DNA of 40,676 nt, taken from the IMG/VR virus record IMGVR_UViG_3300021058_000001, positions 1-40,676 of that record. One strand, given 5' to 3'. This DNA comes from a virus. Below, one piece after another: positions 22,157 to 40,676 of this stretch. Numbering within the stretch: position 1 is the first letter of the stretch; every line of letters begins with the position of its first letter. The position numbers were made by a program, and so were the translations under genes. The notes under the pieces were generated by a model. That model was given only the letters and a program-made list of their open reading frames with translations, was not told the DNA's origin and made no database searches.

Positions 22157-22608
22157 GGCAGAACCTCCAGCCCGCCGTCACCGCCCGTCCACGGATATTG
22201 AGGCGGCGCCGCCGACGCGCCGCCGCCCTCGGAAAAGGCGAAGTCCTCAAGGTCGATCAGGCCGATTTCCACCGGGGCGCCGAAGTCGAACTCCGCGACC
22301 ACATAAGGGTCCGTCGTCCCGACCGCCGTACCGCTCTGGAAGCCGTCGCCATTAGTCAGGCCGGCCGCCGTGCCGCCGTTCGGAACCGACACGGTCGCCC
22401 CGTCGGTCGCCACCGCCTCCAGGGTGTTGCGGATCATCGACACATGGGCGAGGCCCGGCCGCCGGTGCAGCGGCCCCTGCGGCCGGGGCATACAGTTGAC
22501 CGCCAGCGCCAGCGACGACGCATAGGCCTTCAGGTCGCGGCGGCCGATGCAGGCCGGGTCCAGCTCACCGCCGCTGAAGATCGCCTGACGAAAGACCTCC
22601 TGCGCCAT
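22153..22608 (-). CDS. Tail tubular protein B / nozzle, N-terminal fragment (151 aa)
   Basis: The N-terminal pattern FRQAIFSGGELDPACIGRRDLKAYASSLALAVNCMPRPQGPLHRRPG is typical of gp12-like nozzle N-termini. The first half of a discoidin-like domain follows. The ORF abuts the tubular A stop. Confidence 0.65.
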   Translation of the reverse strand: MAQEVFRQAIFSGGELDPACIGRRDLKAYASSLALAVNCMPRPQGPLHRRPGLAHVSMIRNTLEAVATDGATVSVPNGGTAAGLTNGDGFQSGTAVGTTDPYVVAEFDFGAPVEIGLIDLEDFAFSEGGGASAAPPQYPWTGGDGGLEVLP

Positions 22609-27256: not shown

Positions 27257-27725
27257 GGGCTTGTGCGCCTCCGAATTCGCGGCTGAAGACGGCGACGGAG
27301 CCCAGGCGCGTGTCCTCGGTCCCGATCCGTCGGAAGCCCAACCATGCCGCCATGCGCGCCCCCGCAACGCGCCCCGGCCTGTCCCCGCCGCCCGACGGCT
27401 CGCGCACATAGGTCAGCACCCGGTCGCAGCCGCCCTCGGCGGCGATGGCCTCCAGCGTCTCCCGCGTCGCCCGCAAGCCCGCCCGCAGATGCTCCCGAAA
27501 GCCCGGTCCGACCGCCAGCCAGGCCTCCGCATGGTCCGGCTCGGGCCACAGGCCGATGACGCAGACCAGCCGCCCGCCCGGCTCGCGCACCGTGACGGCC
27601 ACGCCCTCGGCGACCTGCCGCGCCATTTCCCCGAACCGCTGGCGCGTCACGCGCGCCCGCCCGCCGTTCGGCGCCAGGGTCTCCAGCATATCGAACGCCG
27701 ACGCCGGCGCGCGCGTCAGCTCCAT
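27246..27725 (-). CDS. Hypothetical protein, possibly GNAT-like acyltransferase fold (159 aa)
   Basis: ATG at 27725 within ORF 27246..28040, overlapping the terL 3' end by 10 nt. The pattern VCVIGLWPEPDHAEAWLAVGP...RVLTYV...ARMAAWLGFRRIG is reminiscent of a small acetyltransferase fold. This is tentative. Confidence 0.4.
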   Translation of the reverse strand: MELTRAPASAFDMLETLAPNGGRARVTRQRFGEMARQVAEGVAVTVREPGGRLVCVIGLWPEPDHAEAWLAVGPGFREHLRAGLRATRETLEAIAAEGGCDRVLTYVREPSGGGDRPGRVAGARMAAWLGFRRIGTEDTRLGSVAVFSREFGGAQAHGR

Positions 27726-29365
27726 GGCGACCAATCCGAACTGTAGGAGCCCTGGCCCCCCGCGCGTCCGGTCATGGCCCCGTCGCGGCCCCGGTCGGGC
27801 ATCCACACCCCGCCCTCGCTCTGGTGGAAGGGCTGGCCGCCCACGTTCTTGCGCGGGCGGTGTTGGTCGAAAGCCTGTCCGCCGACGATCGCGGCCCGCC
27901 CCTGATCGCCCAACAGGGCGTACTGGTCGGCCTCCATGACGTGCGAACTGTTGGACTTCTGGACCTTCAGCCGCTTGCCCGGCGCCTTGGGGTCGTGCGG
28001 CTCCCATTTGTAATCGCCGCCGTAGCCGCGGCGCGACCACCGGCAGGAGGGGTTGATCAACAGGTCGGGCCGCCCGTCGACGGGGTTGTTTCGGCCGATC
28101 AGGGTCCGCACCGCCTCATGCCTCAGACCCAGCTCGTTCGACGGCGCGGCCAGGACCGGGATATTCAGCTTCTGGCCGACCTTCTCCAGATCGGAGAACT
28201 CGCCGAACTCGCGGTCGGCGCCATAGAAGGCCGAAGGGTCGGCCCAGGCGCGCTCGATCACGCAATGGGCGAAGCGCGGGAACAGCACCGCCTCCAGCGC
28301 CTCGGCGAAACGGCCCGCGCCGACGCCGTGCAGGATGCGCCGCCCGCGCGGGTCGGCCGGATCGGTCAGGACACACTCGGCGTATTTGATCCGCCGCCCC
28401 GGGCAGCGCGGGTCGCGACCGAACACCGACGCCGCCGGCGTCCCCCCGCCGTCCATCCCCAGCCAGAGGCTTGCGCCCGCCTCCGGCTCAAGCTCAACGA
28501 GCGAGAAGATGTTGTGGACCGCCGCCTCATCGAAGACTGGTTCGCCCGCAACAGACGCGCCCCACTGATTGCGGATCATCCTGCGGACATACCATTCCGG
28601 CTGGCCTCTAGCCGCGACCTCATAGTAATCGGCGTCCAGGTTGCTCAGGTTCTCGGCGTCTGGATTGGTCAGGAAGGGCGGACCACCCGGCAGGATCGCG
28701 GGCGGCTGGTCGAAGAAGGCGAAGCCGTTGGCGGCGTGGTTGGAGGCCTCATCGACGCAGAGCGAATAGAGCGGATGGTCGGTGTCGGGCTTGTTGAACG
28801 TCGCCCATACGCCGCGGCTTCGCCGGGTCTCCTTGCGCCCGCCGCGCTTCACCCGCCCGGCCAGGAAGCTAAGGGCCTCGGCCGGGGTGGTGTCGGCCTC
28901 GTCGATATAGGCCCCATGCAGCTCCCAGCCGCGACAGGTGGCCTCGACCGTGTGCGTCCCCAGGGCCCGCCACTCGACCCTCAGACGGCATTTCCCCATG
29001 CGCCCGGCGTATTCGGGGCCGTGGATCGCGGGCAGATAGGGGGCGTCGAACTCCAGCTCATGCACCGCCGGCCGATCGTCGGAGCCGACGAAATGGCCGA
29101 ACTCGCGCGGCACCCATGAGAGCCAGGTCTTCATCGTCGTGGCGTACAGGTTGCGATAGTTGTCCCGCAGCGCCCCGACCACCGCCGTTCGGACCCCGTC
29201 GCTGTCCGGCAGCTGGGTCATGACGGTGAAGAACATCTCCGCGACCCCGGCGCCCACCGTCTTGCCGGATCCGATCGGACCTGCCATCGTCCGCGTGAAC
29301 GCTCCGCTCTCGTGAAAAGCCGTCAACGTCGGACCGCCTGGCACATACCGCCGAACGTCGAACAC
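27716..29365 (-). CDS. terL: Terminase large subunit (549 aa)
   Basis: GTG start with SD GAGGTG. Walker A is GPIGSGKT and Walker B-like is GAYIDEAD. A C-terminal nuclease-like region is present. Confidence 0.9.
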   Translation of the reverse strand: MFDVRRYVPGGPTLTAFHESGAFTRTMAGPIGSGKTVGAGVAEMFFTVMTQLPDSDGVRTAVVGALRDNYRNLYATTMKTWLSWVPREFGHFVGSDDRPAVHELEFDAPYLPAIHGPEYAGRMGKCRLRVEWRALGTHTVEATCRGWELHGAYIDEADTTPAEALSFLAGRVKRGGRKETRRSRGVWATFNKPDTDHPLYSLCVDEASNHAANGFAFFDQPPAILPGGPPFLTNPDAENLSNLDADYYEVAARGQPEWYVRRMIRNQWGASVAGEPVFDEAAVHNIFSLVELEPEAGASLWLGMDGGGTPAASVFGRDPRCPGRRIKYAECVLTDPADPRGRRILHGVGAGRFAEALEAVLFPRFAHCVIERAWADPSAFYGADREFGEFSDLEKVGQKLNIPVLAAPSNELGLRHEAVRTLIGRNNPVDGRPDLLINPSCRWSRRGYGGDYKWEPHDPKAPGKRLKVQKSNSSHVMEADQYALLGDQGRAAIVGGQAFDQHRPRKNVGGQPFHQSEGGVWMPDRGRDGAMTGRAGGQGSYSSDWSPWS

Positions 29366-29476
29366 CCGTCACCTCGCCGACCCACACCCCGACCCTCGGG
29401 GCTCAGACTGGCAGGGTCCGCCGGTGTCGAATTCCGCAACGCCATAAAGTGCGGGAACCGATGCACATAAGGGGTT

Positions 29477-29504
29477 GGCGGGGCCGCTTGGGGGGTGGCC
29501 CGCC
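29477..29504 (-). other. GC-rich hairpin in the 190-bp terS-terL spacer
   Basis: GGCGGG(G)CC - 11-nt loop - GGCCCGCC. It lies in the only sizeable non-coding gap inside the late operon (29366..29555). Confidence 0.4.
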
Positions 29505-29555
29505 TCTCCGAGCCGCCCCCTGTTAACGTCCACTTACCACGAAAACCCTTGTATA

Positions 29556-30146
29556 TCAGGCGCTTGACGCGTCGTCCGACTTCGCCTGTCCGACTTGGCC
29601 TAGCCGGACGCTCATTCCGTCACCGGCTGGAAACTCCGACGCCTCCCCGCGCGCGGGAACAAAGGCCCCTCCGTCGCCACCGAGCGAGACCCCGCCAAAG
29701 CTGATCGAAAGGTTCGCCCCGCCCTCCAGCTGGACCGCCTGCGGTAGCTTTTGCGCGACATAGGGTAGCGCCGCCTCGGCCATGCGCAGCTGCAGCTTCA
29801 CGATCTCTAGCAGCCGGTCCGCGTCCGGGTCCTTCTCGCCCAGGGCGACGCGAGCGAACGTCGCCGGGCTCATCGTGTACGCCTCCATGATGACGGCGAG
29901 CGGGTGGCGGTGCTGCGAGAGAAGCCATCCGACCACGGCCTCTGTACGCCGGTTCTTCGCGCCGGGCGGTCGGCCGCGCCGTGGCCGGCGCGGCTCCAAC
30001 GCCGCAGACAAGGGCGAAGGCGCGTCTAGTGCGCCGGTCTCCTCGTCGGTCATTTCCTCGTCGAATAGCCCGGCCTGGACAACGTCGGCCATGGTCGCGC
30101 GGCCCTCCATCGCCTCGCCTAGCGCCGCCGTCACCCCGCCTGTCAT
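29556..30146 (-). CDS. terS: Terminase small subunit (196 aa)
   Basis: ATG at 30146 with SD GAGGG (the track start at 30173 is TTG). The basic motif RRPRRGRPPGAKNRRTE is typical of small terminase DNA-binding N-termini. It lies immediately upstream of terL. Confidence 0.65.
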   Translation of the reverse strand: MTGGVTAALGEAMEGRATMADVVQAGLFDEEMTDEETGALDAPSPLSAALEPRRPRRGRPPGAKNRRTEAVVGWLLSQHRHPLAVIMEAYTMSPATFARVALGEKDPDADRLLEIVKLQLRMAEAALPYVAQKLPQAVQLEGGANLSISFGGVSLGGDGGAFVPARGEASEFPAGDGMSVRLGQVGQAKSDDASSA

Positions 30147-30208
30147 TTCGCCCTCGTTGTTTATTCGCCCCAAGGGTGACGGCCCGCGCCGATCTGCAAC
30201 GCCCTAGA

Positions 30209-30479
30209 CTGAGACTGCCTTGAGACACGTTTTGAGACCGCTAACCCTCTCTTTTGTTTGTGATAATTACTAACTGTCTCAACAGTCTCAACAATCTCAA
30301 GCCTTGCGCTCGCTACACGAACGCCGCCGCCATCATCGGCAAGCGAACGCGATCAGCGCGCGCCCATGATGCGCACACGTTGAGATTTTTGAGACTGTTG
30401 AGACTTGGCCCGAAACCCTAGCGGAAACAGTCGCTTGACTGTCTCAAATCCTGTCTCACCCCGCACCCCGGATTGAGAC
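30209..30479. repeat. Array of 12 TTGAGAC/GTCTCAA heptamers in nested inverted organisation (iteron/operator/pac-like)
   Basis: Forward copies are at 30209, 30220, 30232, 30380, 30389, 30398 and 30473. Reverse copies are at 30276, 30285, 30294, 30441 and 30453. Two triplets have exact 9-bp spacing. An AT-rich 37-bp patch lies at 30239..30275. Confidence 0.85.
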
Positions 30480-30625
30480 CCGGAAGGCCTGGGCGGCTCG
30501 GCCTCCCCCTTATCGCTCAAGACGGCTGCGCCGCCAAGGGTCGGGGGTCGGGGTTTCGGGGCCGTCTTGCGTTTCGGGGTAGCGTGTCCTATAGACAAGA
30601 CGCGGCCCGCATTGCGTCTGGTCGC

Positions 30626-30650
30626 CGCCTCTCGGCATTGGCCGGAGGCG
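30626..30650 (+). promoter_or_regulatory. Conserved hairpin cassette, copy 1, upstream of gene 30671
   Basis: CGCCTC-t-CGGC-attg-GCCG-GAGGCG, followed by the SD block GGGAGTTAACCC and the ATG. Confidence 0.7.
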
Positions 30651-30670
30651 AACATCTGGGAGTTAACCCG

Positions 30671-30913
30671 ATGACGAACCGTCAAGACGTTCTGGCGCGT
30701 GAAACCGCGCACCTTCCCCAAACCGATCGCGACCTGATCGCCCGCCGCCTTGGCGCGGCGGTCGCGCTCGCCCGCCGCTTCCCTACGGCTGACGAGCAAG
30801 CCATGGCCACCAAGCTGCAATCCTTCGGCGGCGCCCCGCGCTGGGTCTGCGTCCTGATCGCCCGCGCGGCCCTCGAAACCCGGCCCGCCCCTGTCGCGGC
30901 GGTGGCGGCGTGA
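30671..30913 (+). CDS. Hypothetical early protein (80 aa)
   Basis: ATG at 30671 with SD GGGAG. It is preceded by conserved hairpin cassette copy 1. Its stop overlaps the next start (GTGA). Confidence 0.55.
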   Translation: MTNRQDVLARETAHLPQTDRDLIARRLGAAVALARRFPTADEQAMATKLQSFGGAPRWVCVLIARAALETRPAPVAAVAA

Positions 30914-31242
30914 CCGCCCTCGCGTCCCAGCTGGGAACCGCCTTTGCCGGGCGGCTGGCTGAACACCTGAGCGGCGACGAGTGGACGGAAATGCGCCGCC
31001 GCAACGCCGCCTTGGAAGCGGGCGGGGCCTTTCTGGCTTGTGCCTCGCACGACTTCCTAGACGCCAACGACGTGATGGACGCGGCGTTTAAGTGGGTGGT
31101 CGGGCGGGCGATGGTCCTTGGCTCGGACGTTGAGGCCGGGCGCGGAACGGAAGCGCAAGCGCGGGCCGATCTGGACCTTTGCAACGCTGCGTGGACTTGG
31201 GCGCGGGCGGCATACCTGACGGCCTCGCCCGACCCGGCCTGA
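30910..31242 (+). CDS. Hypothetical early protein (110 aa)
   Basis: GTG start coupled to the upstream stop. The translation looks protein-like. No motif recognised. Confidence 0.55.
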   Translation: MTALASQLGTAFAGRLAEHLSGDEWTEMRRRNAALEAGGAFLACASHDFLDANDVMDAAFKWVVGRAMVLGSDVEAGRGTEAQARADLDLCNAAWTWARAAYLTASPDPA

Positions 31243-31304
31243 CGGCTCCGGTTATCCCCTCGGCCTCCGGGTCGGGGGGATTGCCCGAACCGCCATGCGT
31301 TCGC

Positions 31305-31329
31305 CGCCCTCGGCAATTGAGCCGGGGCG
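31305..31329 (+). promoter_or_regulatory. Conserved hairpin cassette, copy 2, upstream of ardC
   Basis: CGCCC-t-CGGC-aattga-GCCG-GGGCG, followed by GAGGGAGTTAACCCC and the ATG. It is about 85% identical to copy 1 over ~50 bp by eye. Confidence 0.7.
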
Positions 31330-31352
31330 GTCATCTTGAGGGAGTTAACCCC

Positions 31353-32255
31353 ATGACCCGCGACGATCTTTACGCCTCCGTTACCGCCTCGATCTGCGAG
31401 GCTCTGGAAGCCGGAACCCGCCCTTGGGCGCCCAGCTGGGACAAGGCCGCTTGCGGCGGCGTCGGCGCCCTGCCGCTGCGCTCAACCGGCGAACCCTACA
31501 GGGGCGTCAACGTCCTGTTGCTGTGGGGCGTGGCCATGGCCAAGGGCTACACCCAGCCGCGCTGGCTGACCTTTAAACAGGCCATTGAGGCGGGCGCCGC
31601 CGTCCGCAAGGGCGAGAAGGGCGCCCGCGTGGTCTATGCCGGTCGGCTGGTCCGTGAGGCTGGCGAGGGCGAAACCGGCGACGAGAACGGCCAGCGTCAA
31701 ATCCCCTTTCTCAAGGGCTACACGGTGTTCAACGTCGAGCAAATCGACGGGCTGGGCGCGGACTGGTTTGAGGCGGCGCGGCCCGCCCTGCCCGAACCCG
31801 AACGGGACGCGGCGGCGGAAGCCTTCTTCGCCGCCACGGGCGCGAGGGTCCAGCACGGCGGGGCCGTCGCCTGTTACGTCCCGTCCACCGATCAAATCCA
31901 CATGCCGCCGCTCGGGGCCTTCACTGATCTGGAAGCCTATTACGCGGTCCGCGCCCATGAGACGGTCCACTGGACCGGCCATAAGTCGCGGCTGGACCGG
32001 GCGGGCGGCAAGCGGTTTGCTGACAAGGGTTACGCCTTTGAAGAACTGATCGCGGAAATCGGCGCGGCGTTTCTGTGCGCCTCGCTCGGCCTGTCAGCTG
32101 AACCCCGCGCCGATCACGCCGACTACTTGGCCGGATGGCTCAAGGTCTTGAAGGAAGACAAGCGGGCGATTTTCACCGCCGCCAGCGCCGCCCAGGCGGC
32201 GGTTGATCTGCTGCACCAGCTGGCCGCGCCGGTCGCGCTGGACGTCGCCGCCTGA
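31353..32255 (+). CDS. ardC: ArdC-like antirestriction protein (ssDNA-binding N-domain plus HExxH metalloprotease-like C-domain, 300 aa)
   Basis: The N-terminus DLYASVTASICEALEAGTRPWAPSW matches the ArdC/DUF1738 signature. The C-terminal part contains HETVHWTGH (HExxH). Confidence 0.85.
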   Translation: MTRDDLYASVTASICEALEAGTRPWAPSWDKAACGGVGALPLRSTGEPYRGVNVLLLWGVAMAKGYTQPRWLTFKQAIEAGAAVRKGEKGARVVYAGRLVREAGEGETGDENGQRQIPFLKGYTVFNVEQIDGLGADWFEAARPALPEPERDAAAEAFFAATGARVQHGGAVACYVPSTDQIHMPPLGAFTDLEAYYAVRAHETVHWTGHKSRLDRAGGKRFADKGYAFEELIAEIGAAFLCASLGLSAEPRADHADYLAGWLKVLKEDKRAIFTAASAAQAAVDLLHQLAAPVALDVAA

Positions 32256-32267
32256 CGGCTCTGCTTG

Positions 32268-32292
32268 CCCGCCCGGCCTCGCGCCGGGCGGG
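32268..32292 (+). terminator. Perfect 10-bp GC hairpin after ardC
   Basis: CCCGCCCGGC-ctcgc-GCCGGGCGGG, starting 13 nt after the ardC stop. There is no U tract, so it could be an attenuator or stabiliser rather than a full terminator. Confidence 0.4.
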
Positions 32293-32313
32293 GATACAGA
32301 ACCGTTAGGTTCT

Positions 32314-32338
32314 CCGCTCTCGGCATTGGCCGGGGCGG
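32314..32338 (+). promoter_or_regulatory. Conserved hairpin cassette, copy 3, upstream of parB-like gene
   Basis: CCGCtCt-CGGC-attg-GCCG-gGGCGG. It shares the CTCGGCATTGGCCGG core with copy 1. Confidence 0.65.
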
Positions 32339-32362
32339 TCCCATGGTCGAAAGGACCTGACT

Positions 32363-34141
32363 ATGTCTGCCAAGAAAAACACCGCCGCCGCTCCGCTGGC
32401 CCGCTTCGCTCTGGCCCCGGAAAACGCCCGCCACGGCGTCGAATATGACGCCGACGGCCTCGCCGCTCTGGCCGGGTCCATCGTCGCCTTCGGGCGGCTG
32501 CTGGAACCCCTCAAGGTCTATCAGGACGGCGAGGCCCTGATGGTATGGGACGGCGGGCGCCGCCTCGCCGCCCTGCAACTGCTGGCACAGGCCGAAACCC
32601 CGCCCGCCCTGCTGGACGCGGTCGGCTATATCCTGACGGACCGCGCCGACGCCGCGCTCGCCTCTATGGCGACGTTCCTCCGCGAGCCGATGCACCCCGC
32701 CGACCGCTTCGCCGCTTATTCGGCCCTGTTTGACGCTGGCCAGACGGCGGAACAAATCGCGGCGGCTTGCGCCGTCTCCCCGCGCGGCGTGGCGCAGCTG
32801 CTCCGCTTCCGGCTGCTGGCGCCCGAAATTCTGACGGCGTTCCGCGCCGGTCGGATGGACTTTGACGCTTGCCTCGCCTTCACGCTGGACGCCGACCACG
32901 AGGCGCAGCGGGCCGTTCTGGATAGCTTCGGCGACCGCCGCATAAATGAATGGCAGGTCAAAAACGCCCTGCGATCTGACGCGGTGCGCGGCGATAGCTT
33001 CATCGCCCGCATCGTCGGGCGGGACGCCTATGAGGCGGCGGGCGGGCGCTTCCTTGTCGATCTGTTCACCGGCGACGACGAGGGCGACGAGCGTTGGCAG
33101 GACGGCGCCCTGCTCGGTCGCCTGTTTGAAGCGGCGGTCGCGGCCCGCGTGGCGGAAGCCCAGGCGGAAGGCTGGGGCGCCGTTCGCGTGGTGGAAAACC
33201 AGTATGAGACGGCCATCGGCTATCACCCCGCCGAACCGGAGGGCGAGGCCTTCACCGACGAGGAACGCGCGGGCCTGACGGCCTTCGTCGTCTATCAGCG
33301 CCACCCGGAAGCCGCGCTCGTCATTGAGGGCGGCTGGCGCAGCCACAAGGCGCAGCCCGGCGAGGCCAGCGGGACGGGCGAAGCCAAGCCCAAGCCCGCG
33401 ACGGAAGACCCAGCCCGGTGGGGCTGGGGCCATGGCGGTCACGATCTGGCGACGACACAAGCGACCCTCGCCGTCCGCTCGGCCCTGCTGGCCAATCCCG
33501 CCGCCGCCTATGACGCCCTGCTGGCGCAAATGGCATGGGACGCGCTCGGCTGGTCCGGCGAGGCTATTTCCGGCCTTCGGGTACGGGGCGGGGCCGCGAC
33601 GGAGGCGGAAGCCGACGCGCGGACGGCGTGGAAGGCCCGCCTGAACCCTGTCGACCGCGTGGCCTTCTATGGGGCGGTCGCGGCGCTGGACGCGAGCGAG
33701 AAGGCCGAACTGCTGGCCCTCTGCTTCGTCCTGTCCGTCAGCGTTCGCGAGGCGCGGACGGACAACCACGACCCGGCCCGGTGGGCGCAACTCGGCTGGA
33801 CCGCTCGCCACGCGGGCGTCACCCTGGCCGATTTCGGAACCCCGTCCGAAGCCTTCCTCAAGGGCGGCTCAAGGCCCGCCCTCCTGACCGCCGTGGCCGA
33901 TCTGGCGCCCGGCGAGGAAGTCCGTCAGGCCGAAGCGAAGAAGGGGGCGCTGGTGACCTACGTTGGCCACAAGGCGACGGAGGCGGGCGGCTGGGCGCCG
34001 CAGCTGCTCCGCGATCTGCTCACGGACCCGGCGGCGGAAAAGCCCGCCAAGGCCCCGCGCAAGGGCCGTGGACGGGGAAAGACGGAGGCGGCGGCGCCTG
34101 ACGCCGTCAACGACGCGGACGCCCTCGCGGACGCCGCCTAG
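32363..34141 (+). CDS. Large ParB/KorB-like N-terminal-domain protein (592 aa)
   Basis: ParB box LLEPLKVYQDGEALMVWDGGRRLAALQLL (GxxRxxA-type). An HTH-like region (TAEQIAAACAVSPRGVAQLLR) and a long C-terminal extension follow. It is adjacent to ardC, as in the leading regions of conjugative elements. Confidence 0.75.
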   Translation: MSAKKNTAAAPLARFALAPENARHGVEYDADGLAALAGSIVAFGRLLEPLKVYQDGEALMVWDGGRRLAALQLLAQAETPPALLDAVGYILTDRADAALASMATFLREPMHPADRFAAYSALFDAGQTAEQIAAACAVSPRGVAQLLRFRLLAPEILTAFRAGRMDFDACLAFTLDADHEAQRAVLDSFGDRRINEWQVKNALRSDAVRGDSFIARIVGRDAYEAAGGRFLVDLFTGDDEGDERWQDGALLGRLFEAAVAARVAEAQAEGWGAVRVVENQYETAIGYHPAEPEGEAFTDEERAGLTAFVVYQRHPEAALVIEGGWRSHKAQPGEASGTGEAKPKPATEDPARWGWGHGGHDLATTQATLAVRSALLANPAAAYDALLAQMAWDALGWSGEAISGLRVRGGAATEAEADARTAWKARLNPVDRVAFYGAVAALDASEKAELLALCFVLSVSVREARTDNHDPARWAQLGWTARHAGVTLADFGTPSEAFLKGGSRPALLTAVADLAPGEEVRQAEAKKGALVTYVGHKATEAGGWAPQLLRDLLTDPAAEKPAKAPRKGRGRGKTEAAAPDAVNDADALADAA

Positions 34142-34197
34142 CCCTCGGGGCGGGGGCGGCTTGTCCGTCCCCGCCTCCACGCCCTAAAGGATGGTCC

Positions 34198-34530
34198 ATG
34201 ACCGATCTAACCCCTGACCTCATCCGCCGGGCCGGGCTGGCCCTCTACGGGCCGAACTGGAAGGCCCCGCTAGCCGCCCTGCTCAACTCGGCTCCGCGCA
34301 CCATCTCGCGGATTGACGCCGCGCTCATCAAGGGCGAGGCCTACGACGTCAACCCCGCCTGGGCGGGTCCGCTAAAGCTGGCGCTTGAGGGGCTGCCCGA
34401 ACGGCGGCGCCAACAGGAGGCCGACGCCCGCGCCGTCCTTGAGGCCCTGGCCCATGTTCAACCCCGGCCAGAAGACGACCCACGCGAGCGGATGCGGCGC
34501 AGCCATCTGTTCCGCAACAGCGAGACCTAG
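34198..34530 (+). CDS. Hypothetical protein (110 aa)
   Basis: ATG with SD AAGGA. It is preceded by the hairpin GGCGGGG...CCCCGCC. Its TAG stop shares the CTAG tetranucleotide with the convergent helicase stop. Confidence 0.5.
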   Translation: MTDLTPDLIRRAGLALYGPNWKAPLAALLNSAPRTISRIDAALIKGEAYDVNPAWAGPLKLALEGLPERRRQQEADARAVLEALAHVQPRPEDDPRERMRRSHLFRNSET

Positions 34531-36566
34531 CCGTCCTCGCCCGGCTGGCGCCCGCCGTCCTCGAGACGGCGGGCGCTTTCGCGCGCCTCGGCCTCGGCCT
34601 CAAGGTTCACCTTGTCGGGGTCCAGGTCGAAGATCGGGATGCGCTCGCCGTTGGCCTCATAGGTCGCGCCCAACCATATCTGAGTGCAGCGTTCGCGCTC
34701 CAGCTGGGGAACATTGTCCGAGCGCCACACGCCGTCGCCGGTCCCGTCCTGTTGCAGGATGTATTTCCCGCCGTTGCGAAGGGCGCTCGTCCAAGCCCCG
34801 TCGCCGCCCGCCGCGCGGAAGTCCGTCTCGCGGAATATGGCGTTGACCTGCTGGTGGGTCGGGCTGATCGCCAGAAACACATGGCCCCCCTTGGCCCTCA
34901 CAAGAGCGAGGCCCGCCCGGTTCAGCTTCCTTTGCAGGGCGGGCGCGTCCTCGCTGGGCTTGCCGTCCTTCTTGAGCCAGTCGCGGACCACCTCGCCCAC
35001 ACTGGTCATTGAGCCGGATCCCCACACCGGAGGGTGAGCGTTGAGGATGACGCGGAAGATCCGCAGCCAGGTCGGCTCGCTGCCCTCGTATTCGTACAGG
35101 TCCGCGCGAGCGAGGCCGCGCACAAGGTTGTCGCAAACCCCGTCGCTCTGGACCTCATCGAACAGCATCAGGTCGGCCGCCGCCAGCAAGGTGCCGAACT
35201 GGCGGGCGCCGCGCTGGTTATGGCCGATGCGGCCCAGCGCCATTTCATAGGCCCTCAAGGTCTGTGGCCACCGGCTCCACCCGGCGACCAGCCGCCCGAC
35301 CATCCGCTGGCCATGCTCTCTCAGGGTCCCGTCGGAAAGGTGCGCAAGCTCTGTTCCCTTTTTCAGGGGCTGCAGACGCAGGAAGGTCAGGCGCTGCATA
35401 TCCTGGGCGCGCATGGACGGCGGCACGATGGCCGAAAAGGCGAAGCAGCCGCGCAGGGTGAATTCCGAGGCGTTGTGGTCCTTGCCGCCGCGATAGGTCG
35501 TCCCGCCCGAGGCCGCGACCCGGGCCAGCTTCATCACATTGACGGCCTGATCGGTGTTCACATCGGCCTCGATCTCATCGAACGACACCGCCATGGCGTC
35601 CTGATTGACGATCTGGCGCAGCGCCGCCGGCGAGGCGTCCACCGTCGAGGCCATGCGCCCCGGCAGCAGCTTCTTGATCCGGTCCTGCAACGACGACTTA
35701 CCCGTCCCCGCGTCCCCGGTGATAAAGGTCATGGGGCGCCAGTCCAGGGCGGCGCCCAGCACGGCGCAGCCGATCCACCCCAGCAACAGGTGGGCGTCGA
35801 TCACCCCGCGCGACCAATTCCAGGTCTGAAAGTCGGCCAGCATGGCCTCCGCGCTCTCCTTGCCGCCCTCCATGATGGGCGGCGCGACCTTGGGTCGGCC
35901 GGGATAGACGAAGTCGCCGATCATCCCCGGCTTGCGGCCCTTGGCCTCGCCCTCGATGCGCACCTCGTTTCCAAGGTGCATCACCAGCTCGCCGTCCGGC
36001 CCGCGCCAGCAGCCAAGGCCGCGCACCTTCTCGCGCGGGTCGAAGACGTCGCGATCGCCGCACGACATGAACAGGGCCTTGCGGGCGATATCGGCCTTGA
36101 ACCCGGTCAAGGTGCCGCCCTGATTGAAGGCCGGATAGTTGGACAGAAGCCACCACATCGCCTTGGGGGTGGAGAACAGGCCCTCAAGGTGGGACTGGCC
36201 GAACTTGCCGTCCTCATAGCTGACCAGCTGGCCGCGCTCGGTCAGGAAGAAGAACACCTTTCCGTCCTGCCCCAGCGGCGTCACCGGGCAGTCGTCGGGG
36301 ACAGGGCCCAGGCTGGCGTAATAGATTTCGCCCTCCGGGCTCAGACGGGGGAAGCGCAGGCTGCGATAGACCCGCTTGGGCTTGTCGTCGCCCGTCCCTT
36401 CGTCGGCCGGGCCGTCGTCGTCCTCGTCGTCGCCGTCATCGCCGCCGGGCCAGTCCGCGAAGTCCCCGGCGCCCAGGATGGCGTCGCGCCCCGCCGTCAG
36501 GCGGCGGCGGCGCTGTTCCTCAAGGAACGCCTTGTCGCCATGAGGATCGTCTTCCCTGCCGCTCAC
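34527..36566 (-). CDS. Replicative helicase-like NTPase (SF3/primase-associated type, 679 aa)
   Basis: GTG start overlaps the primase stop (GTGA). Walker A is ITGDAGTGKSS and Walker B-like is AMAVSFDEIE. The N-terminus is an acidic linker. Confidence 0.7.
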   Translation of the reverse strand: MSGREDDPHGDKAFLEEQRRRRLTAGRDAILGAGDFADWPGGDDGDDEDDDGPADEGTGDDKPKRVYRSLRFPRLSPEGEIYYASLGPVPDDCPVTPLGQDGKVFFFLTERGQLVSYEDGKFGQSHLEGLFSTPKAMWWLLSNYPAFNQGGTLTGFKADIARKALFMSCGDRDVFDPREKVRGLGCWRGPDGELVMHLGNEVRIEGEAKGRKPGMIGDFVYPGRPKVAPPIMEGGKESAEAMLADFQTWNWSRGVIDAHLLLGWIGCAVLGAALDWRPMTFITGDAGTGKSSLQDRIKKLLPGRMASTVDASPAALRQIVNQDAMAVSFDEIEADVNTDQAVNVMKLARVAASGGTTYRGGKDHNASEFTLRGCFAFSAIVPPSMRAQDMQRLTFLRLQPLKKGTELAHLSDGTLREHGQRMVGRLVAGWSRWPQTLRAYEMALGRIGHNQRGARQFGTLLAAADLMLFDEVQSDGVCDNLVRGLARADLYEYEGSEPTWLRIFRVILNAHPPVWGSGSMTSVGEVVRDWLKKDGKPSEDAPALQRKLNRAGLALVRAKGGHVFLAISPTHQQVNAIFRETDFRAAGGDGAWTSALRNGGKYILQQDGTGDGVWRSDNVPQLERERCTQIWLGATYEANGERIPIFDLDPDKVNLEAEAEARESARRLEDGGRQPGEDG

Positions 36567-37699
36567 GCCACGCCCCGCACCAAATCGTTGAAGTCCTTGC
36601 CCTCGGGGCTGCGCGCCACCGTGACGGGCTTGCCCATGCCCTTCAGTCGGGCCACCGCCCGGCTCAACAGGGCGTGGGCCTGGGGCTTGCCCCAATCGTT
36701 GTCGGCCGAGACGATGACGGCGCTGGCGCAGGGCGGCGGCACATAGGTCAGCAGCCCCGGCAGCGACCCGGCCACATGGACCCGGTATTCAGGGACCATC
36801 ATGGCGATCGAGAACCCGTCCTCGACGCCCTCGCACACCACCAGCGGGCAGGAATGGCCCTTGGCCGTGGCCTCGTTCTCGCTCAGGAAATTGGCCCCGC
36901 GCCACAGGCGGATGGCCGTCCCTTCCGCCTCCGGCCACATCTTGCGCGGCGGGTCCAGGTCGGCCTTCTCGCCCTCGCGATCGGGGTTGATCCAGATGCG
37001 GTGCAGACTGCCGAACCCGCCCGCGTGAAGGTCCATGCGGGACGCCAGCGCCGGGCCGATATGCTCCTCGATGACCTCGCCGTCGCCGCCGAACTTCACC
37101 CACCGCTCGCGCGGCGACAGTTTCACCGCCCGCGGGATGCGCCCCAGCTGTTTGAAGTCGATGCCGCGGGCCTCCAGATAGCGGGCGCCGACACAGCCCG
37201 GCACGGCCACCCTCCCGTTGTACCGCGTCGGCCGCAGGTCCTCGGCCTCGATCCAGATATGCTCGGCCACGCCCCGGTTGCGCTTCAGGTTCCGCGCCGC
37301 CGCCTTCTGCGCCTCGGCCGCGCGCGCTTTGGCCGCCTCGATGTTCCGGCGCCACGCCAGCTCGTCGAAGTCGCCGCCCTCCAGACCATAGCGGGCGCGC
37401 GCCCATTTGATCCCCTCGCGGCGGGCGTCCCGCGTCTTGGCGTCGGGCTGGCCCGTCAGCACACAGCCGACAAGGCCCAGGGCGTCGCCGAACCGCCCGG
37501 CGATCCAGTCGTTCCACTTCCCGGCGATGGGCTGGATTTCGATTTCCAGCTTGGGCTTGGCGCTGTCGCCCCACGGCGGGATGCAATAGAGGCGGCGCTG
37601 GTCGCGGCGCCGCACGTCGATCCTCAAGTCCGTGACCACGGCCTCGATCTCATCGGCCAGCCGCATCGCCAGCTCGCGCACGGTGACGGTGTCGCTCAT
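36563..37699 (-). CDS. Toprim-domain DNA primase (378 aa)
   Basis: ATG at 37699 (the track start at 37783 is TTG). Toprim motifs are VVCEGVEDG and IVSADNDWG. It lies upstream of the helicase and is coupled to it. Confidence 0.7.
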   Translation of the reverse strand: MSDTVTVRELAMRLADEIEAVVTDLRIDVRRRDQRRLYCIPPWGDSAKPKLEIEIQPIAGKWNDWIAGRFGDALGLVGCVLTGQPDAKTRDARREGIKWARARYGLEGGDFDELAWRRNIEAAKARAAEAQKAAARNLKRNRGVAEHIWIEAEDLRPTRYNGRVAVPGCVGARYLEARGIDFKQLGRIPRAVKLSPRERWVKFGGDGEVIEEHIGPALASRMDLHAGGFGSLHRIWINPDREGEKADLDPPRKMWPEAEGTAIRLWRGANFLSENEATAKGHSCPLVVCEGVEDGFSIAMMVPEYRVHVAGSLPGLLTYVPPPCASAVIVSADNDWGKPQAHALLSRAVARLKGMGKPVTVARSPEGKDFNDLVRGVA

Positions 37700-37878
37700 C
37701 ACTCGCCGCCTTTGGGCAAATCGACGTCGATCGGGGCAGGCCCCGGCTCCCAGCTCGGCGGCAGACGGATTTCCAGCGGCCAAGCCGTTTGCGTGATTTC
37801 GAGGGGTGGATGCAGAACCGCCGCCAACACATGGCGCGCCTCGCGCCGCATCCGGCGGATTTCTCTAGGCCGCATCAT
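37699..37878 (-). CDS. Small hypothetical protein (59 aa, internal start of ORF 37699..37926)
   Basis: The ATG overlaps the upstream stop (ATGA) and its TGA overlaps the primase ATG, so it is coupled at both ends. GC3 is roughly 75% by hand count. Confidence 0.4.
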   Translation of the reverse strand: MMRPREIRRMRREARHVLAAVLHPPLEITQTAWPLEIRLPPSWEPGPAPIDVDLPKGGE

Positions 37879-38615
37879 CCTTCTTCCCCCGCCAGTCGCC
37901 GCACGAACCGCCGCTCGTCCGCCCATACCTGTTCGTCCGGCCCCTTGGCCGCGCGGCGGCGGCCGCGCTCGATGACCTGGCCGTTCTCCACCGTCTCGGG
38001 ATCGTCGCCGTCGCGCTGGCGCAGATAGCGTTCGGTCGCATTGTCGACGGCCTGACGGCTCACCCCGGCCACGCCCGCCACCGTCTCGGAATTCACCCGC
38101 CCGACCACGACGGCCAGGGCCATGCCCCGGCTGCGCGCCGACTGTTCCGGCGTCGGCGTCCCGCCCGCGCCGCCCGCCGGCGCACCCATGACCGCGCGAA
38201 CGTGCAGCCCCGCTTCCTCGGCCGCGAACCGCATGGCCGCGACGATCAGGCCAAGGTCCAGAAGGTCCATGGTCCCCGGTTCGGGGCGCCCCGGCATGGC
38301 CTTGACCGTCGCCGTCGCCCCCTCGGGCAGGCCCGACGCGATCGCGAACCGCGCCCGCGCCCGCTCGATCCAGCCGCGCTCGCGCTCGGCCTCATAGAAG
38401 TCGGCAAGGTCGGGGCGTATCTGTTCGGGCTTCAACCCCAACGCCGCCGCGATCACCGGCACCCGCTCGCGCGGCACCGTGTCCCATTTGCTGACGCTGG
38501 GCTTGCTCACGCCACACAGCCGCGCCAGCTGGCCGATCCCGCCCGCCTTGCGGATCGCCAGCATGGTCCCGGCCGGACGGCCCGGCCGCAAGCCTCCCTC
38601 CCACGCGCCCGTCAT
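37875..38615 (-). CDS. Two-HTH DNA-binding protein (YdaS/Cro-like N-terminal HTH; DnaA-domain-IV-like C-terminal HTH), possible replication initiator/regulator (246 aa)
   Basis: N-terminal pattern: IRKAGGIGQLARLCGVSKPSVSKWDTVPRERVPVIAAALGLKPEQIRPDL. C-terminal pattern: SRGMALAVVVGRVNSETVAGVAGVSRQAVDNATERY. Confidence 0.55.
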   Translation of the reverse strand: MTGAWEGGLRPGRPAGTMLAIRKAGGIGQLARLCGVSKPSVSKWDTVPRERVPVIAAALGLKPEQIRPDLADFYEAERERGWIERARARFAIASGLPEGATATVKAMPGRPEPGTMDLLDLGLIVAAMRFAAEEAGLHVRAVMGAPAGGAGGTPTPEQSARSRGMALAVVVGRVNSETVAGVAGVSRQAVDNATERYLRQRDGDDPETVENGQVIERGRRRAAKGPDEQVWADERRFVRRLAGEEG

Positions 38616-40549: not shown

Positions 40550-40676
40550 CCCCGCCGCAACAAAGCGCGGCGCCCGCCGGTGGCGCCAGCGCCGCCGGGC
40601 CGGTGATGGCTTAACCTTTTGTTGGTTGACTTTTTCAACGACGCACCCGCTTTTTCACCAGCCAGTCGCGTTGATC
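40550..40676. repeat. Exact 127-bp terminal duplication, copy 2 (identical to 1..127)
   Basis: Same comparison as for copy 1. Confidence 0.95.

What the first reader, a model, noticed from the sequence alone, without database searches (positions are those of the whole stretch)
30209..30479. Dense, symmetric heptamer array (TTGAGAC/GTCTCAA x12) between terS and the early genes
A 271-bp stretch of the only large divergent intergenic region (30147..30670) carries 12 copies of one heptamer, three of them with a single mismatch.

The layout is ordered:
- three forward copies (30209, 30220, 30232)
- a 37-bp AT-rich patch (30239..30275)
- three reverse copies at exact 9-bp spacing (30276, 30285, 30294)
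- a 79-bp GC-rich spacer
- three forward copies at 9-bp spacing (30380, 30389, 30398)
- a 36-bp spacer
- two reverse copies (30441, 30453)
- one forward copy (30473)

Such an array implies cooperative binding of a sequence-specific protein. I see three hypotheses:
1. A TerS recognition (pac) region. It sits directly upstream of terS, as boxed repeats do in SPP1-type pac sites.
2. A replication origin with iterons plus an AT-rich unwinding patch.
3. An operator array for a phage regulator, possibly the ParB/KorB-like protein encoded 2 kb away.

I cannot tell which from sequence alone.
Basis: seen in the sequence. Interest (0 to 1): 0.75.

Follow-up and report, generated by a model that had tools for sequence, protein, structure and literature searches.

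The report
Phage replication origin iteron array
The 12-copy heptamer array is most likely the phage's replication origin: short repeats flanking an easily melted AT-rich patch, apparently read by the phage's own self-loading helicase. It is a new variant of a design known from staphylococcal pathogenicity islands, not a packaging site or a ParB operator.

Summary
All 8 exact TTGAGAC/GTCTCAA copies in the 40.7-kb circular phage genome, plus 4 one-mismatch copies, lie in 30209-30479, arranged with dyad symmetry.

About 30 related Brevundimonas/Caulobacteraceae (pro)phages carry the same architecture at the same place: `< 23 >> 42 <<< 77-90 >>> 42 <<<`, then ~70 bp to terS, with a median of 12 words. 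The word itself differs between phages, always fitting G-N-N-A-C.

Evidence on what reads the word:
- **Replication module:** word divergence tracks helicase divergence (Mantel r=0.44, p=0.002).
- **TerS:** no relation (r=-0.06).
- **Single residue:** in a scan of 2,099 protein columns, the best discriminator is helicase residue 552. Lys goes with pure GGGAC (7/7 vs 0/13), and this arose through four independent coincident switches. It held in a blind hold-out.
- **Helicase fold:** the model matches Cch and SaPI Rep self-loading initiator helicases.
- **AT patch:** it is the least stable duplex in the genome.
- **Gene order:** the ancestral order is primase-helicase-array-terS. The ArdC/ParB module is a later insertion.

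Best explanation: an iteron origin of the SaPI Rep-ori type (confidence ~0.65). Pac-site and ParB-operator readings are disfavoured. No biochemical proof exists.

The parts
30209..30238 (+). Outer iteron set next to terS: three words (CTGAGAC 30209, TTGAGAC 30220, TTGAGAC 30232), spaced 11 and 12 bp, pointing toward the AT patch
   Evidence: the same set is present in 23 related genomes
30239..30275 (.). AT-rich patch (35% GC), candidate DNA-unwinding element. The least stable 40-bp duplex of the genome is 30252-30291
   Evidence: dG -46.6 vs mean -64.9, sd 4.0 kcal/mol; the equivalent patch ranks first in 18 of 22 related loci
30276..30300 (-). Inner iteron triplet (GTCTCAA 30276, GTCTCAA 30285, ATCTCAA 30294) at exactly 9-bp spacing, pointing toward the AT patch
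30301..30379 (.). Central 79-bp spacer (68% GC) containing the dyad axis (~30340). It also holds the only alternating purine/pyrimidine run of 12 nt or more in the genome (ATGCGCACACGT, 30369-30380). Relatives carry CGCGCGCG-type tracts here
30380..30404 (+). Second inner iteron triplet (TTGAGAT 30380, TTGAGAC 30389, TTGAGAC 30398) at 9-bp spacing, the mirror image of 30276-30300
30405..30440 (.). Second spacer (56% GC), the distal counterpart of the AT patch. It contains a TTGACT motif
   Evidence: 42-bp start-to-start spacing conserved
30441..30479 (.). Distal outer words: GTCTCAA 30441 (-), GTCTCAC 30453 (-), TTGAGAC 30473 (+)
34527..36368 (-). Self-loading initiator-type helicase. 613 aa from this ATG; the public gene call P0001 starts 66 codons upstream. 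P-loop GDAGTGKS. This is the proposed iteron reader
   Evidence: AF2 pLDDT 94; best fold match Cch 5DGK, then SaPI PriRep 7OLA/7PDS, then D5/E5
34530..35048 (-). Helicase C-terminal domain (residues ~441-613): a winged-helix-like unit (457-501) followed by a small beta subdomain (548-578)
   Evidence: (word distance vs beta subdomain distance r=0.51, p=0.0002)
34713..34718 (-). Codons for Asp551-Asn552 in the motif GVWRSDNVPQL. Residue 552 tracks base 4 of the word (Lys with G only; Asn with A, A/G or T; Ala/Val with T)
36563..37783 (-). Toprim/DUF7146 primase (longest ORF), directly upstream of the helicase. It forms a pri-rep pair
30508..30546 (-). Conserved promoter-like element CCCCGACCC-TTGGCGG-N14-GCGATAAG, reading through the array toward terS. 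It sits at a fixed ~402 bp from the terS ATG in most relatives
   Evidence: The match to the Caulobacter sigma-73 consensus is from my own knowledge and was not tested
29556..30146 (-). TerS-like gene (196 aa), labelled by position only. It starts ~63 bp from the last word

Best explanation
The array is the phage's origin of replication. It consists of about 12 short iterons with core G-A-G-A-C/T, arranged as two mirror-image units. In each unit, two or three words on one side and three words on the other point toward a ~36-bp spacer and lie 42 bp (four helical turns) apart. The spacer nearest terS is the most easily melted DNA in the genome.

The proposed reader is the C-terminal domain of the phage's own helicase (34527-36368, minus strand). 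This helicase belongs to the Cch / SaPI-Rep / D5 class of self-loading initiator helicases and is encoded next to a Toprim primase.

The proposed mechanism is as follows. Helicase subunits dock on the iterons through their C-terminal domains. They assemble one hexamer per unit (12 words for two hexamers) and melt the AT patch. The primase then starts synthesis, and host polymerase does the rest.

What is shown: the array, its conservation, its co-variation with the helicase, the helicase fold, and the low duplex stability.

What is inferred: direct binding, hexamer stoichiometry, melting and origin activity.
For: (1) Conservation: the same architecture lies at the same locus in ~30 related phages and prophages, with a different word in each. 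This includes a relative with only ~30% TerL and helicase identity and 49% GC.

(2) Word template: all words fit G-N-N-A-C/T, with 10-15 copies and a median of 12.

(3) Gene order: the ancestral order is primase-helicase-array, with the array directly after the helicase stop codon in L004, L010, L013, L046, L047 and L059.

(4) Mantel tests of word distance against protein distance: helicase r=0.44 (p=0.002), helicase beta subdomain r=0.51 (p=0.0002), HTH protein r=0.41, primase r=0.35, TerL r=0.25, TerS r=-0.06 (p=0.62).

(5) Column scan: across 2,099 columns in 7 proteins, the best discriminator of 'G only at base 4' is helicase residue 552 = Lys (7/7 vs 0/13, p=1.3e-5). The next best column is ~600-fold weaker.

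(6) Blind test: predictions were written down before fetching. Lys gave G in 2/2 cases, Ala gave T in 1/1, and Asn gave A in 1/4 pure cases, 2/4 mixed A/G, and 1/4 failed with T. For Lys vs non-Lys the hold-out split is perfect (2/2 vs 0/6).

(7) Independence: on a tree built without the C-terminal domain, the four K/non-K switches coincide with the four word switches. The window lineage itself is a K-to-N reversal with GGGAC changing to GAGAC.

(8) Helicase fold: AF2 model pLDDT 94. The best PDB matches are Cch (5DGK), SaPI5 PriRep (7OLA), PriRep1 (7PDS) and D5/E5.

(9) Known precedent: SaPI Reps read 6-12 penta/hexanucleotide iterons that lie immediately downstream of rep, flank an AT-rich region and point in opposite directions. 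They probably load two hexamers (PMC9371898).

(10) Duplex stability: the AT patch is the least stable 40-mer in the genome, and the equivalent patch is the least stable in 18/22 related loci.
Against: There is no experimental evidence of binding or origin activity.

- **Failed predictions:** The Asn-to-A rule failed for L079.
- **Statistics:** with a strict Bonferroni correction the residue-552 association is only borderline (~0.06). It rests on four evolutionary switches.
- **Shared inheritance:** the replication genes are inherited together, so the HTH protein and primase also correlate with the word.
- **Position:** in every genome the array stays ~70 bp from terS, while at least five kinds of insertion have occurred between the helicase and the array and none between the array and terS. 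This also fits a terS-linked or late-promoter-linked function.
- **Fold:** the C-terminal domain alone has no significant fold match, so 'winged helix' is not established.
- **Architecture:** the centre of the array is not AT-rich as it is in SaPI origins.
- **Sequence:** there is no sequence-level homology to SaPI Rep.
Confidence: 0.65

Rival explanations
1. Packaging recognition (pac or cos-type) site. Multiple TerS subunits bind the words on both sides of a central cleavage region, as in P1 pac, SPP1 pacL/pacR or lambda cosB with a bend at the AT patch.
For: The array always lies ~40-80 bp upstream of terS, even when other genes are inserted between it and the helicase. TerS carries an AT-hook-like RRGRPxGxKNRR motif that could contact the AT patch. 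The dyad layout around a conserved centre resembles P1 pac (my own knowledge).
Against: TerS divergence is unrelated to word divergence (Mantel r=-0.06, p=0.62). No TerS column discriminates word classes (best p~8e-3). L013, L050 and L014 have near-identical putative recognition helices but read GTAAC, GAGAC and GGGAC. L046 and L047 have the TerS/TerL closest to the window but quite different words. Convergent word orientation does not suit a cyclic TerS ring (inference). A strongly conserved non-coding element in the terS-terL gap is a better match for a conserved TerS.
Confidence: 0.12
2. The array is an origin, but the iterons are read by the 246-aa HTH protein (37875-38615, minus strand) acting as a lambda-O-like initiator that recruits the helicase.
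For: The protein is present in all close relatives, directly upstream of the primase and helicase. It has a Cro/YdaS-type HTH. Its divergence also correlates with word divergence (r=0.41, p=0.008).
Against: No column of this protein discriminates word classes (best p~9e-3). WIN and L004 share GAGAC but differ throughout the N-terminal HTH. The C-terminal HTH (SRQAVDNAxERYLR) is nearly invariant across phages with different words. No homologue was detected in L046, L047 or L059, which do have the array.
Confidence: 0.08
3. Operator or roadblock array controlling transcription. The targets could be the conserved promoter that reads through the array into the late (terS) operon, the divergent ArdC/ParB operon, or both. 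The binder would be a phage regulator such as the ParB/KorB-like protein.
For: A conserved promoter-like element points through the array. A sigma-70-like hit (TTGAGA-17-AATTAT) overlaps the inner triplet. The word resembles a -35 hexamer.
Against: The ParB-like gene and the divergent small gene are absent from that position in L004, L010, L013, L046, L047, L059, L074 and L075, all of which keep the array. A separate palindrome upstream of the divergent gene is a more typical operator. Twelve sites with a fixed 42-bp geometry exceed any ordinary operator. The word tracks a helicase residue.
Confidence: 0.07

Closest known systems
SaPI / PICI replicon: pri - rep - ori (Staphylococcus aureus pathogenicity islands; PMC9371898 and the papers it cites)
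   Same: A primase gene is followed by a self-loading initiator helicase, which is followed by the origin. There are 6-12 penta/hexanucleotide iterons on both sides of an AT-rich region, pointing in opposite directions. Specificity differs between elements and matches the cognate helicase C-terminal domain. A packaging module (terS) lies downstream. The window helicase model matches the SaPI5 and SaPI1 PriRep structures and the related Cch.
   Different: Only 10-12% sequence identity and no shared Pfam family. The host is an alphaproteobacterium and the element is a complete temperate podovirus-like phage, not a satellite. The array is a double unit with dyad symmetry, two spacers and a non-AT-rich 79-bp centre carrying an alternating Pu/Py tract. 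Word sets sit at a fixed 42-bp distance, with 9-bp phasing inside triplets. The specificity-tracking residue lies in a beta strand after the winged-helix-like unit. In this window the origin is separated from the helicase gene by a 4.3-kb insertion.
Bacteriophage P4 ori/crr and the alpha protein (my own knowledge: Ziegelin et al. 1993; Yeo et al. 2002)
   Same: Short repeated words (the octamer TGTTCACC) in direct and inverted orientation are read by the C-terminal domain of a primase-helicase of the same broad helicase class.
   Different: P4 fuses primase and helicase in one protein and needs a second distant repeat cluster (crr). Here the two genes are separate and there is only one cluster in the genome.
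SV40 / polyomavirus and papillomavirus core origins (my own knowledge)
   Same: Pentamer or hexamer words in inverted arrangement, flanked by easily melted DNA, load two SF3 hexamers head to head. The origin sits between divergently transcribed early and late regions.
   Different: These are eukaryotic viruses with a different origin-binding domain fold and far fewer words (4-6). They have no separate primase gene.
Terminase recognition sites with repeated words: P1 pac hexamers, SPP1 pacL/pacR, lambda cosB R sites plus IHF (my own knowledge)
   Same: Repeated short words lie on both sides of a central region next to terS, with a bendable AT-rich segment between inverted words.
   Different: In those systems the site co-varies with the TerS DNA-binding domain (for example lambda vs phage 21). 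Here it does not.
T7 SRL/SRR short-repeat arrays next to the terminal repeat (my own knowledge: Dunn and Studier 1983)
   Same: About 12 imperfect heptamer repeats in a podovirus with T7-like structural genes, near the packaging-relevant region.
   Different: T7 repeats are direct, lie at the genome ends beside a 160-bp terminal repeat, and have no known cognate reader. No terminal repeat is evident here: the 127-nt end overlap is an assembly artefact of a circular contig. This comparison was not tested further.

Membership tests
SaPI/PICI-type Rep-ori replicon (works-like comparison) | Initiator is a self-loading hexameric helicase of the Rep/Cch (D5-like SF3 / MCM-like) fold | tested here: met
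   AF2 model pLDDT 94.1, pTM 0.91. Foldseek top hit is Cch 5DGK_B (E 2.7e-8, 572 aligned columns), followed by SaPI5 PriRep 7OLA, PriRep1 7PDS and D5/E5.
SaPI/PICI-type Rep-ori replicon (works-like comparison) | C-terminal winged-helix domain that binds the iterons | tested here: inconclusive
   The model shows helix-helix-beta-hairpin at 457-501 plus a beta subdomain at 548-578. The CTD-only model (pLDDT 77) has no significant PDB neighbour. The word-tracking residue 552 lies in the beta subdomain.
SaPI/PICI-type Rep-ori replicon (works-like comparison) | 6-12 penta- or hexanucleotide iterons | tested here: met
   12 words with core GAGAC/T in the window. Relatives have 8-15, median 12.
SaPI/PICI-type Rep-ori replicon (works-like comparison) | Iterons flank an AT-rich region and point in opposite directions | tested here: met
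   The pattern >>> 42 bp <<< lies around a 35% GC patch that is the least stable duplex in the genome. This unit is duplicated in mirror image, which differs from SaPIs.
SaPI/PICI-type Rep-ori replicon (works-like comparison) | Origin immediately downstream of the rep ORF, with pri upstream | tested here: inconclusive
   Met in relatives L004, L010, L013, L046, L047 and L059. In the window itself a 4.3-kb opposite-strand module (30671-34530) separates the helicase from the array.
SaPI/PICI-type Rep-ori replicon (works-like comparison) | Iteron sequence matches the specificity of the cognate helicase | tested here: met
   Supported by co-variation only: residue 552 Lys with GGGAC, 7/7 vs 0/13; perfect hold-out split; four coincident switches on the tree; Mantel r=0.44-0.51. 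Binding itself cannot be tested here.
SaPI/PICI-type Rep-ori replicon (membership by descent) | Detectable sequence homology to SaPI Rep / Cch (for example DUF927) | tested here: not met
   No Pfam family other than weak P-loop hits. No PDB sequence hit with the single sequence or with a 118-sequence profile. Identity in structural alignments is 10-12%.
SaPI/PICI-type Rep-ori replicon | The region supports helicase-dependent replication | not testable with these tools
   Needs origin-trapping or marker-frequency experiments.
P4 alpha / ori-crr | Primase and helicase fused in one polypeptide; two separate repeat clusters (ori and crr) | tested here: not met
   Primase (36563-37783) and helicase (34527-36368) are separate genes. 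All exact words lie in one cluster.
Terminase small-subunit recognition site (pac / cosB) | Located in or next to terS | tested here: met
   The last word is ~63-70 bp upstream of the terS-like ATG in the window and 39-83 bp in 23 genomes.
Terminase small-subunit recognition site (pac / cosB) | Site sequence co-varies with the TerS DNA-binding region | tested here: not met
   Mantel r=-0.06, p=0.62. No discriminating TerS column. Identical putative helices occur with different words.
Terminase small-subunit recognition site (pac / cosB) | Packaging termini or series start map to the site | not testable with these tools
   No read data. The contig is a circular assembly.
ParB/KorB centromere or operator | The cognate ParB-family protein is encoded wherever the site occurs | tested here: not met
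   A ParB-like homologue was found only in genomes with the inserted module. It is absent between helicase and terS in L004, L010, L012, L013, L014, L046, L047, L059, L074 and L075, which all have the array. Only ~10 kb of flank was examined.
ParB/KorB centromere or operator | Palindromic 13-16-bp site | tested here: not met
   The words are asymmetric 5-7-mers in tandem triplets.

The most novel reading that the evidence does not exclude
The array is a 12-site 'double-hexamer landing pad' of a previously undescribed origin class in alphaproteobacterial temperate podoviruses. A new C-terminal beta-strand module of a Cch/Rep-like helicase would read a G-N-N-A-C pentamer using a simple, naturally re-programmable residue-to-base code (552: Lys-G, Asn-A, Ala/Val-T; 551: Asp/Glu-G:C, Asn-T:A). 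At least eight natural specificities would then act as replication-incompatibility barriers between co-resident prophages. The same conserved scaffold, fixed ~70 bp from terS and crossed by a conserved promoter, might also couple replication to late transcription or packaging.
Probability: 0.25. Interest if true: 0.65.

Novelty: new variant of a known kind. Interest (0 to 1): 0.45.

Why it matters
If correct, this assigns a function to a conspicuous non-coding element and to an unannotated 600-700-aa protein family. That family has no Pfam domain, and its members in the databases are called 'hypothetical'.

It extends the SaPI-type 'self-loading helicase plus iteron origin' design from Gram-positive satellites to complete temperate phages of Caulobacterales.

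It also provides a natural series of closely related helicase/iteron pairs that differ at single bases and single residues. Such a series is useful for studying how origin specificity evolves, and for building orthogonal replicons in high-GC alphaproteobacteria.

For genome annotation, it warns that a repeat array next to terS need not be a pac site.

Tried and rejected
- **Phage DNA similarity:** a search of 29500-31500 found no match.
- **Rfam:** searches on the array and on the terS-terL gap found no match.
- **tRNAs:** none.
the idea that the whole helicase C-terminal signature predicts the word, prompted by WIN/L004 similarity, failed. L069 has the same signature but reads GGGAC. I replaced it with a single-residue rule.
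- **Asn-to-A rule:** it failed for L079, which has Asn but reads GTGAC. Only the rule 'Lys means G only' is robust.
- **Residue 551 vs base 5:** the association is perfect (15/15 vs 0/5) but not unique, because the trait is clustered on the phylogeny. I treat it as suggestive only.
- **Module-swap test:** L047 and L059 share the word GTAAC, but their helicases are no closer to each other than to any other (~30% identity), so the test was uninformative.
- **Helicase-based scan of viral contigs:** it returned only contigs already in hand.
- **Distant TerL relatives:** the L056 'array' is a coding Gly-Tyr repeat. Most distant relatives have no array within the flanks held.
- **CTD-only structure search:** no significant hit.
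- **Sequence searches of helicase and TerL against PDB:** nothing significant.
- **RNA structure for the terS-terL element:** weak, with an unfavourable covariation term.
- **IHF, DnaA-box and CtrA-box readings of the AT patch:** I considered these by eye and found no convincing consensus match. They were not pursued.
- **Original SaPI ori papers:** PMC1964853 and PMC3804134 were not available in the library.

Full report
**1. The observation**

The window is a circularly assembled, complete ~40.55-kb phage genome: its first 127 nt repeat at the end. It is 70.6% GC.

The exact heptamer TTGAGAC/GTCTCAA occurs 8 times, all between 30220 and 30479. The whole window would be expected to hold 2.1 copies, and no shuffle reached 8. 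TGAGAY is about 140-fold denser inside the array than outside it.

The array is an imperfect palindrome about position ~30340. Arms 30276-30309 and 30371-30404 are 85% complementary. The 37-bp patch at 30239-30275 is 35% GC. The 79-bp centre is 68% GC, which is only the genome average.

**2. Genomic context**

The minus strand to the left of the array encodes these genes in order:
- a TerS-like protein (29556-30146), labelled by position only
- a large terminase (27716-29365), with no direct Pfam hit, although 6 of 18 family members hit Terminase_3/6N
- a T7-type portal, scaffold, capsid, tail-tube and internal virion proteins

The plus strand to the right encodes an 80-aa protein, a 110-aa protein, ArdC, a ParB-like protein and another 110-aa protein. 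A minus-strand block follows: helicase (34527-36368), Toprim primase, and a 246-aa HTH protein. An integrase and a CI-like repressor show that the phage is temperate.

**3. Relatives**

Protein-guided searches recovered about 30 related loci from IMG/VR, GTDB genomes (Brevundimonas and other Caulobacteraceae, as integrated prophages), metagenomes and Logan assemblies.

Every close relative has an array at the same place. In terS orientation the pattern is `< 23 >> 41-42 <<< 77-90 >>> 41-42 <<<`, followed by ~70 bp to the terS ATG. The median is 12 words. A relative with only ~30% TerL and helicase identity and 49% GC (L059) has the same layout, including a CGCGCGCG-type alternating tract in the centre.

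The word differs between phages. Objective calls give GAGAC, GGGAC, GATAC/T, GGAAC, GTAAC, GTGAC, AAGAC, GAGAT and GTTGC. All of them fit G-N-N-A-C/T.

A constant scaffold with a variable word is the signature of a sequence-specific protein that co-evolves with its sites.

**4. Which protein reads the word?**

*Gene order.* The ancestral order, seen in L004, L010, L013, L046, L047 and L059, is HTH protein - primase - helicase - array - terS - terL on one strand. The window's ArdC/ParB module is an insertion shared with only some relatives. This removes the ParB-like protein and the divergent small gene as universal readers.

*TerS.* Its putative HTH helix is conserved and does not follow the word. 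L013, L050 and L014 are nearly identical there but read GTAAC, GAGAC and GGGAC.

*First attempt.* My idea that the whole helicase C-terminal signature predicts the word failed on L069.

*Single-residue rule.* After putting the words in a common register, one helicase position stood out: residue 552 in the motif GVWRSD-N-VPQL, codon 34713-34715. I wrote predictions down before fetching eight more genomes. The outcome:

| Residue 552 | Predicted base 4 | Result |
|---|---|---|
| Lys | G | pure GGGAC in 2/2 |
| Ala | T | 1/1 |
| Asn | A | 1/4 pure, 2/4 mixed A/G, 1/4 failed (T) |

The robust rule is that Lys552 goes with G only at base 4.

*Unbiased scan.* I scanned 2,099 columns in TerS, TerL, helicase, primase, the HTH protein, a 126-aa protein and the portal. 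Residue 552 is the best discriminator (7/7 vs 0/13, p=1.3e-5). The next best column anywhere is about 600-fold weaker, and no terminase column comes close.

*Independence.* On a tree built from the helicase core without the C-terminal domain, residue 552 and the word each change four times, on the same branches. The window lineage is itself a Lys-to-Asn reversal accompanied by GGGAC changing to GAGAC.

*Mantel tests* of word distance against protein distance:

| Protein or region | r | p |
|---|---|---|
| Helicase | 0.44 | 0.002 |
| Helicase beta subdomain carrying residue 552 | 0.51 | 0.0002 |
| HTH protein | 0.41 | 0.008 |
| Primase | 0.35 | 0.02 |
| TerL | 0.25 | 0.05 |
| TerS | -0.06 | 0.62 |

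Residue 551 also fits base 5 (Asp/Glu with G, Asn with T). That trait is clustered on the phylogeny, so I count it as suggestive only.

**5. What kind of helicase?**

The helicase has no Pfam domain and no sequence match in the PDB. An AlphaFold2 model built with 118 homologues is confident (pLDDT 94, pTM 0.91).

Its best structural neighbours are:
- Cch of SCCmec (5DGK, aligned over almost the full length)
- the SaPI5 and SaPI1 primase-Rep helicases (7OLA, 7PDS)
- poxvirus D5/E5
- the NrS-1 and ASFV primase-helicases

These form the class of self-loading initiator helicases. The C-terminal part shows a helix-helix-beta-hairpin unit (457-501) and then a small beta subdomain whose first strand (548-553) carries residues 551 and 552. 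A model of the C-terminal domain alone found no significant fold match.

**6. Comparison with what is known**

PMC9371898 summarises the SaPI system. Rep helicases also act as initiators through a C-terminal winged-helix domain that recognises penta- or hexanucleotide iterons. Six to twelve iterons lie immediately downstream of rep. An AT-rich region lies near the centre, with iterons on each side pointing in opposite directions. Two hexamers are probably loaded.

The array here matches each of these points, and in the ancestral gene order it also matches the position. In addition, the terS-proximal AT patch is the least stable 40-bp duplex of the whole genome (dG -46.6 vs a mean of -64.9, sd 4.0), and the equivalent patch ranks first in 18 of 22 related loci.

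The differences are:
- no sequence homology to SaPI Rep
- a mirror-duplicated unit with a non-AT-rich centre
- fixed 42-bp spacing between word sets and 9-bp phasing within triplets
- a specificity residue that lies outside the winged-helix-like unit
- a complete temperate phage of an alphaproteobacterium as the carrier

I therefore file it as working like a SaPI-type Rep-ori replicon, but not as a demonstrated member of that family by descent.

**7. Rival explanations**

*Pac site.* This keeps some weight. The array is never separated from terS, while at least five kinds of insertion lie between it and the helicase. TerS also has an AT-hook-like motif. The lack of any TerS/word co-variation argues against it. 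So does a strongly conserved 190-bp non-coding element in the terS-terL gap (29366-29555), which would suit a conserved TerS better.

*Origin read by the 246-aa HTH protein.* This is possible but lacks any discriminating column, and the protein was not detected in L046, L047 or L059.

*Operator or roadblock role.* This is suggested by a conserved promoter-like element (30508-30546, minus strand) that reads through the array. It does not explain the geometry or the link to the helicase. It may instead reflect transcriptional activation of the origin, or be the late promoter.

**8. Verdict**

Confidence in 'iteron origin read by the helicase C-terminal domain' is about 0.65. The main gap is the absence of any binding or replication experiment. 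The statistical case rests on four evolutionary switches and a modest hold-out set.

It is a new variant of a known kind of system. It is of moderate interest, mainly for origin-specificity evolution and for annotating a large unannotated helicase family.

Noticed in passing
window 29366-29555 (terS-terL gap; the minus strand is transcribed): A ~190-bp non-coding element is very strongly conserved at the DNA level across phages whose flanking proteins are only 55-75% identical. Invariant blocks are CCAACCCCTTATGTG, TCCCGCAC, GCGTTGC, GACCCTG and CCCCGAGGGTCGGGGT. It also contains one of the least stable duplex spots in the genome. There is no Rfam hit and only weak support for RNA structure. 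It could be the real packaging site or another protein-binding site.
   Followed up: partly
window 30508-30546, minus strand: A conserved promoter-like element, CCCCGACCC-TTGGCGG-N14-GCGATAAG, points through the array toward terS. It lies at a nearly fixed ~402 bp from the terS ATG in most relatives. In the 49%-GC relative L059 the equivalent is a clean TTGCAA-17-TAATAT. It resembles the Caulobacter sigma-73 consensus (from memory). Its role is unknown: late promoter, or transcriptional activation of the origin.
   Followed up: partly
window ~30583-30600, and the equivalent positions in L049, L050, L051, L069-L073, L076, L078-L080: A palindrome-like motif (GTCCTA-N4-TAGGAC, or GTCGTA-N4-TACGAC in other relatives) lies upstream of the divergent 80-aa gene that heads the ArdC/ParB module. 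It looks like a conventional operator for that module, separate from the array.
   Followed up: no
window 30369-30380; the array centres of L010, L046, L047, L059, L069, L070: The only alternating purine/pyrimidine run of 12 nt or more in the whole window (ATGCGCACACGT) lies in the array centre. Relatives carry longer CGCGCGCG/TGCGCAC tracts there, even in the AT-richer L059. These tracts are Z-DNA-prone, or they may be a conserved protein site. Their function is unexplained.
   Followed up: partly
window 30671-34530, plus strand: The module 80 aa - 110 aa - ArdC (anti-restriction) - ParB-like 592 aa - 110 aa is an insertion between the helicase and the origin. Its content varies between relatives (ArdC present or absent, an LPD29 gene in L080) and it is missing in others. 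The helicase-array junction looks like a hot spot for accessory genes.
   Followed up: partly
window 1-127 and 40550-40676: A perfect 127-nt direct repeat at the two ends of the window indicates a circular assembly overlap. The true genome length is ~40,549 bp, and the window ends say nothing about the physical termini.
   Followed up: yes
window 20039-22156 and 22153-22608, minus strand: Two adjacent ORFs overlapping by 4 bp both match the same tail-protein family (phrog_376). The 151-aa ORF matches profile positions 7-61 and the 705-aa ORF matches positions 53-708. This is either a split gene, a frameshift (programmed or a sequencing error), or a genuine two-gene arrangement.
   Followed up: no
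window ~29950-29990, minus strand (TerS-like residues ~53-66): The TerS-like protein carries a conserved AT-hook-like motif RRGRPPGAKNRR, preceded by an invariant GALDAPSPLSA segment. It has no Pfam family and only a weak hit to an unknown-function PHROG.
   Followed up: no
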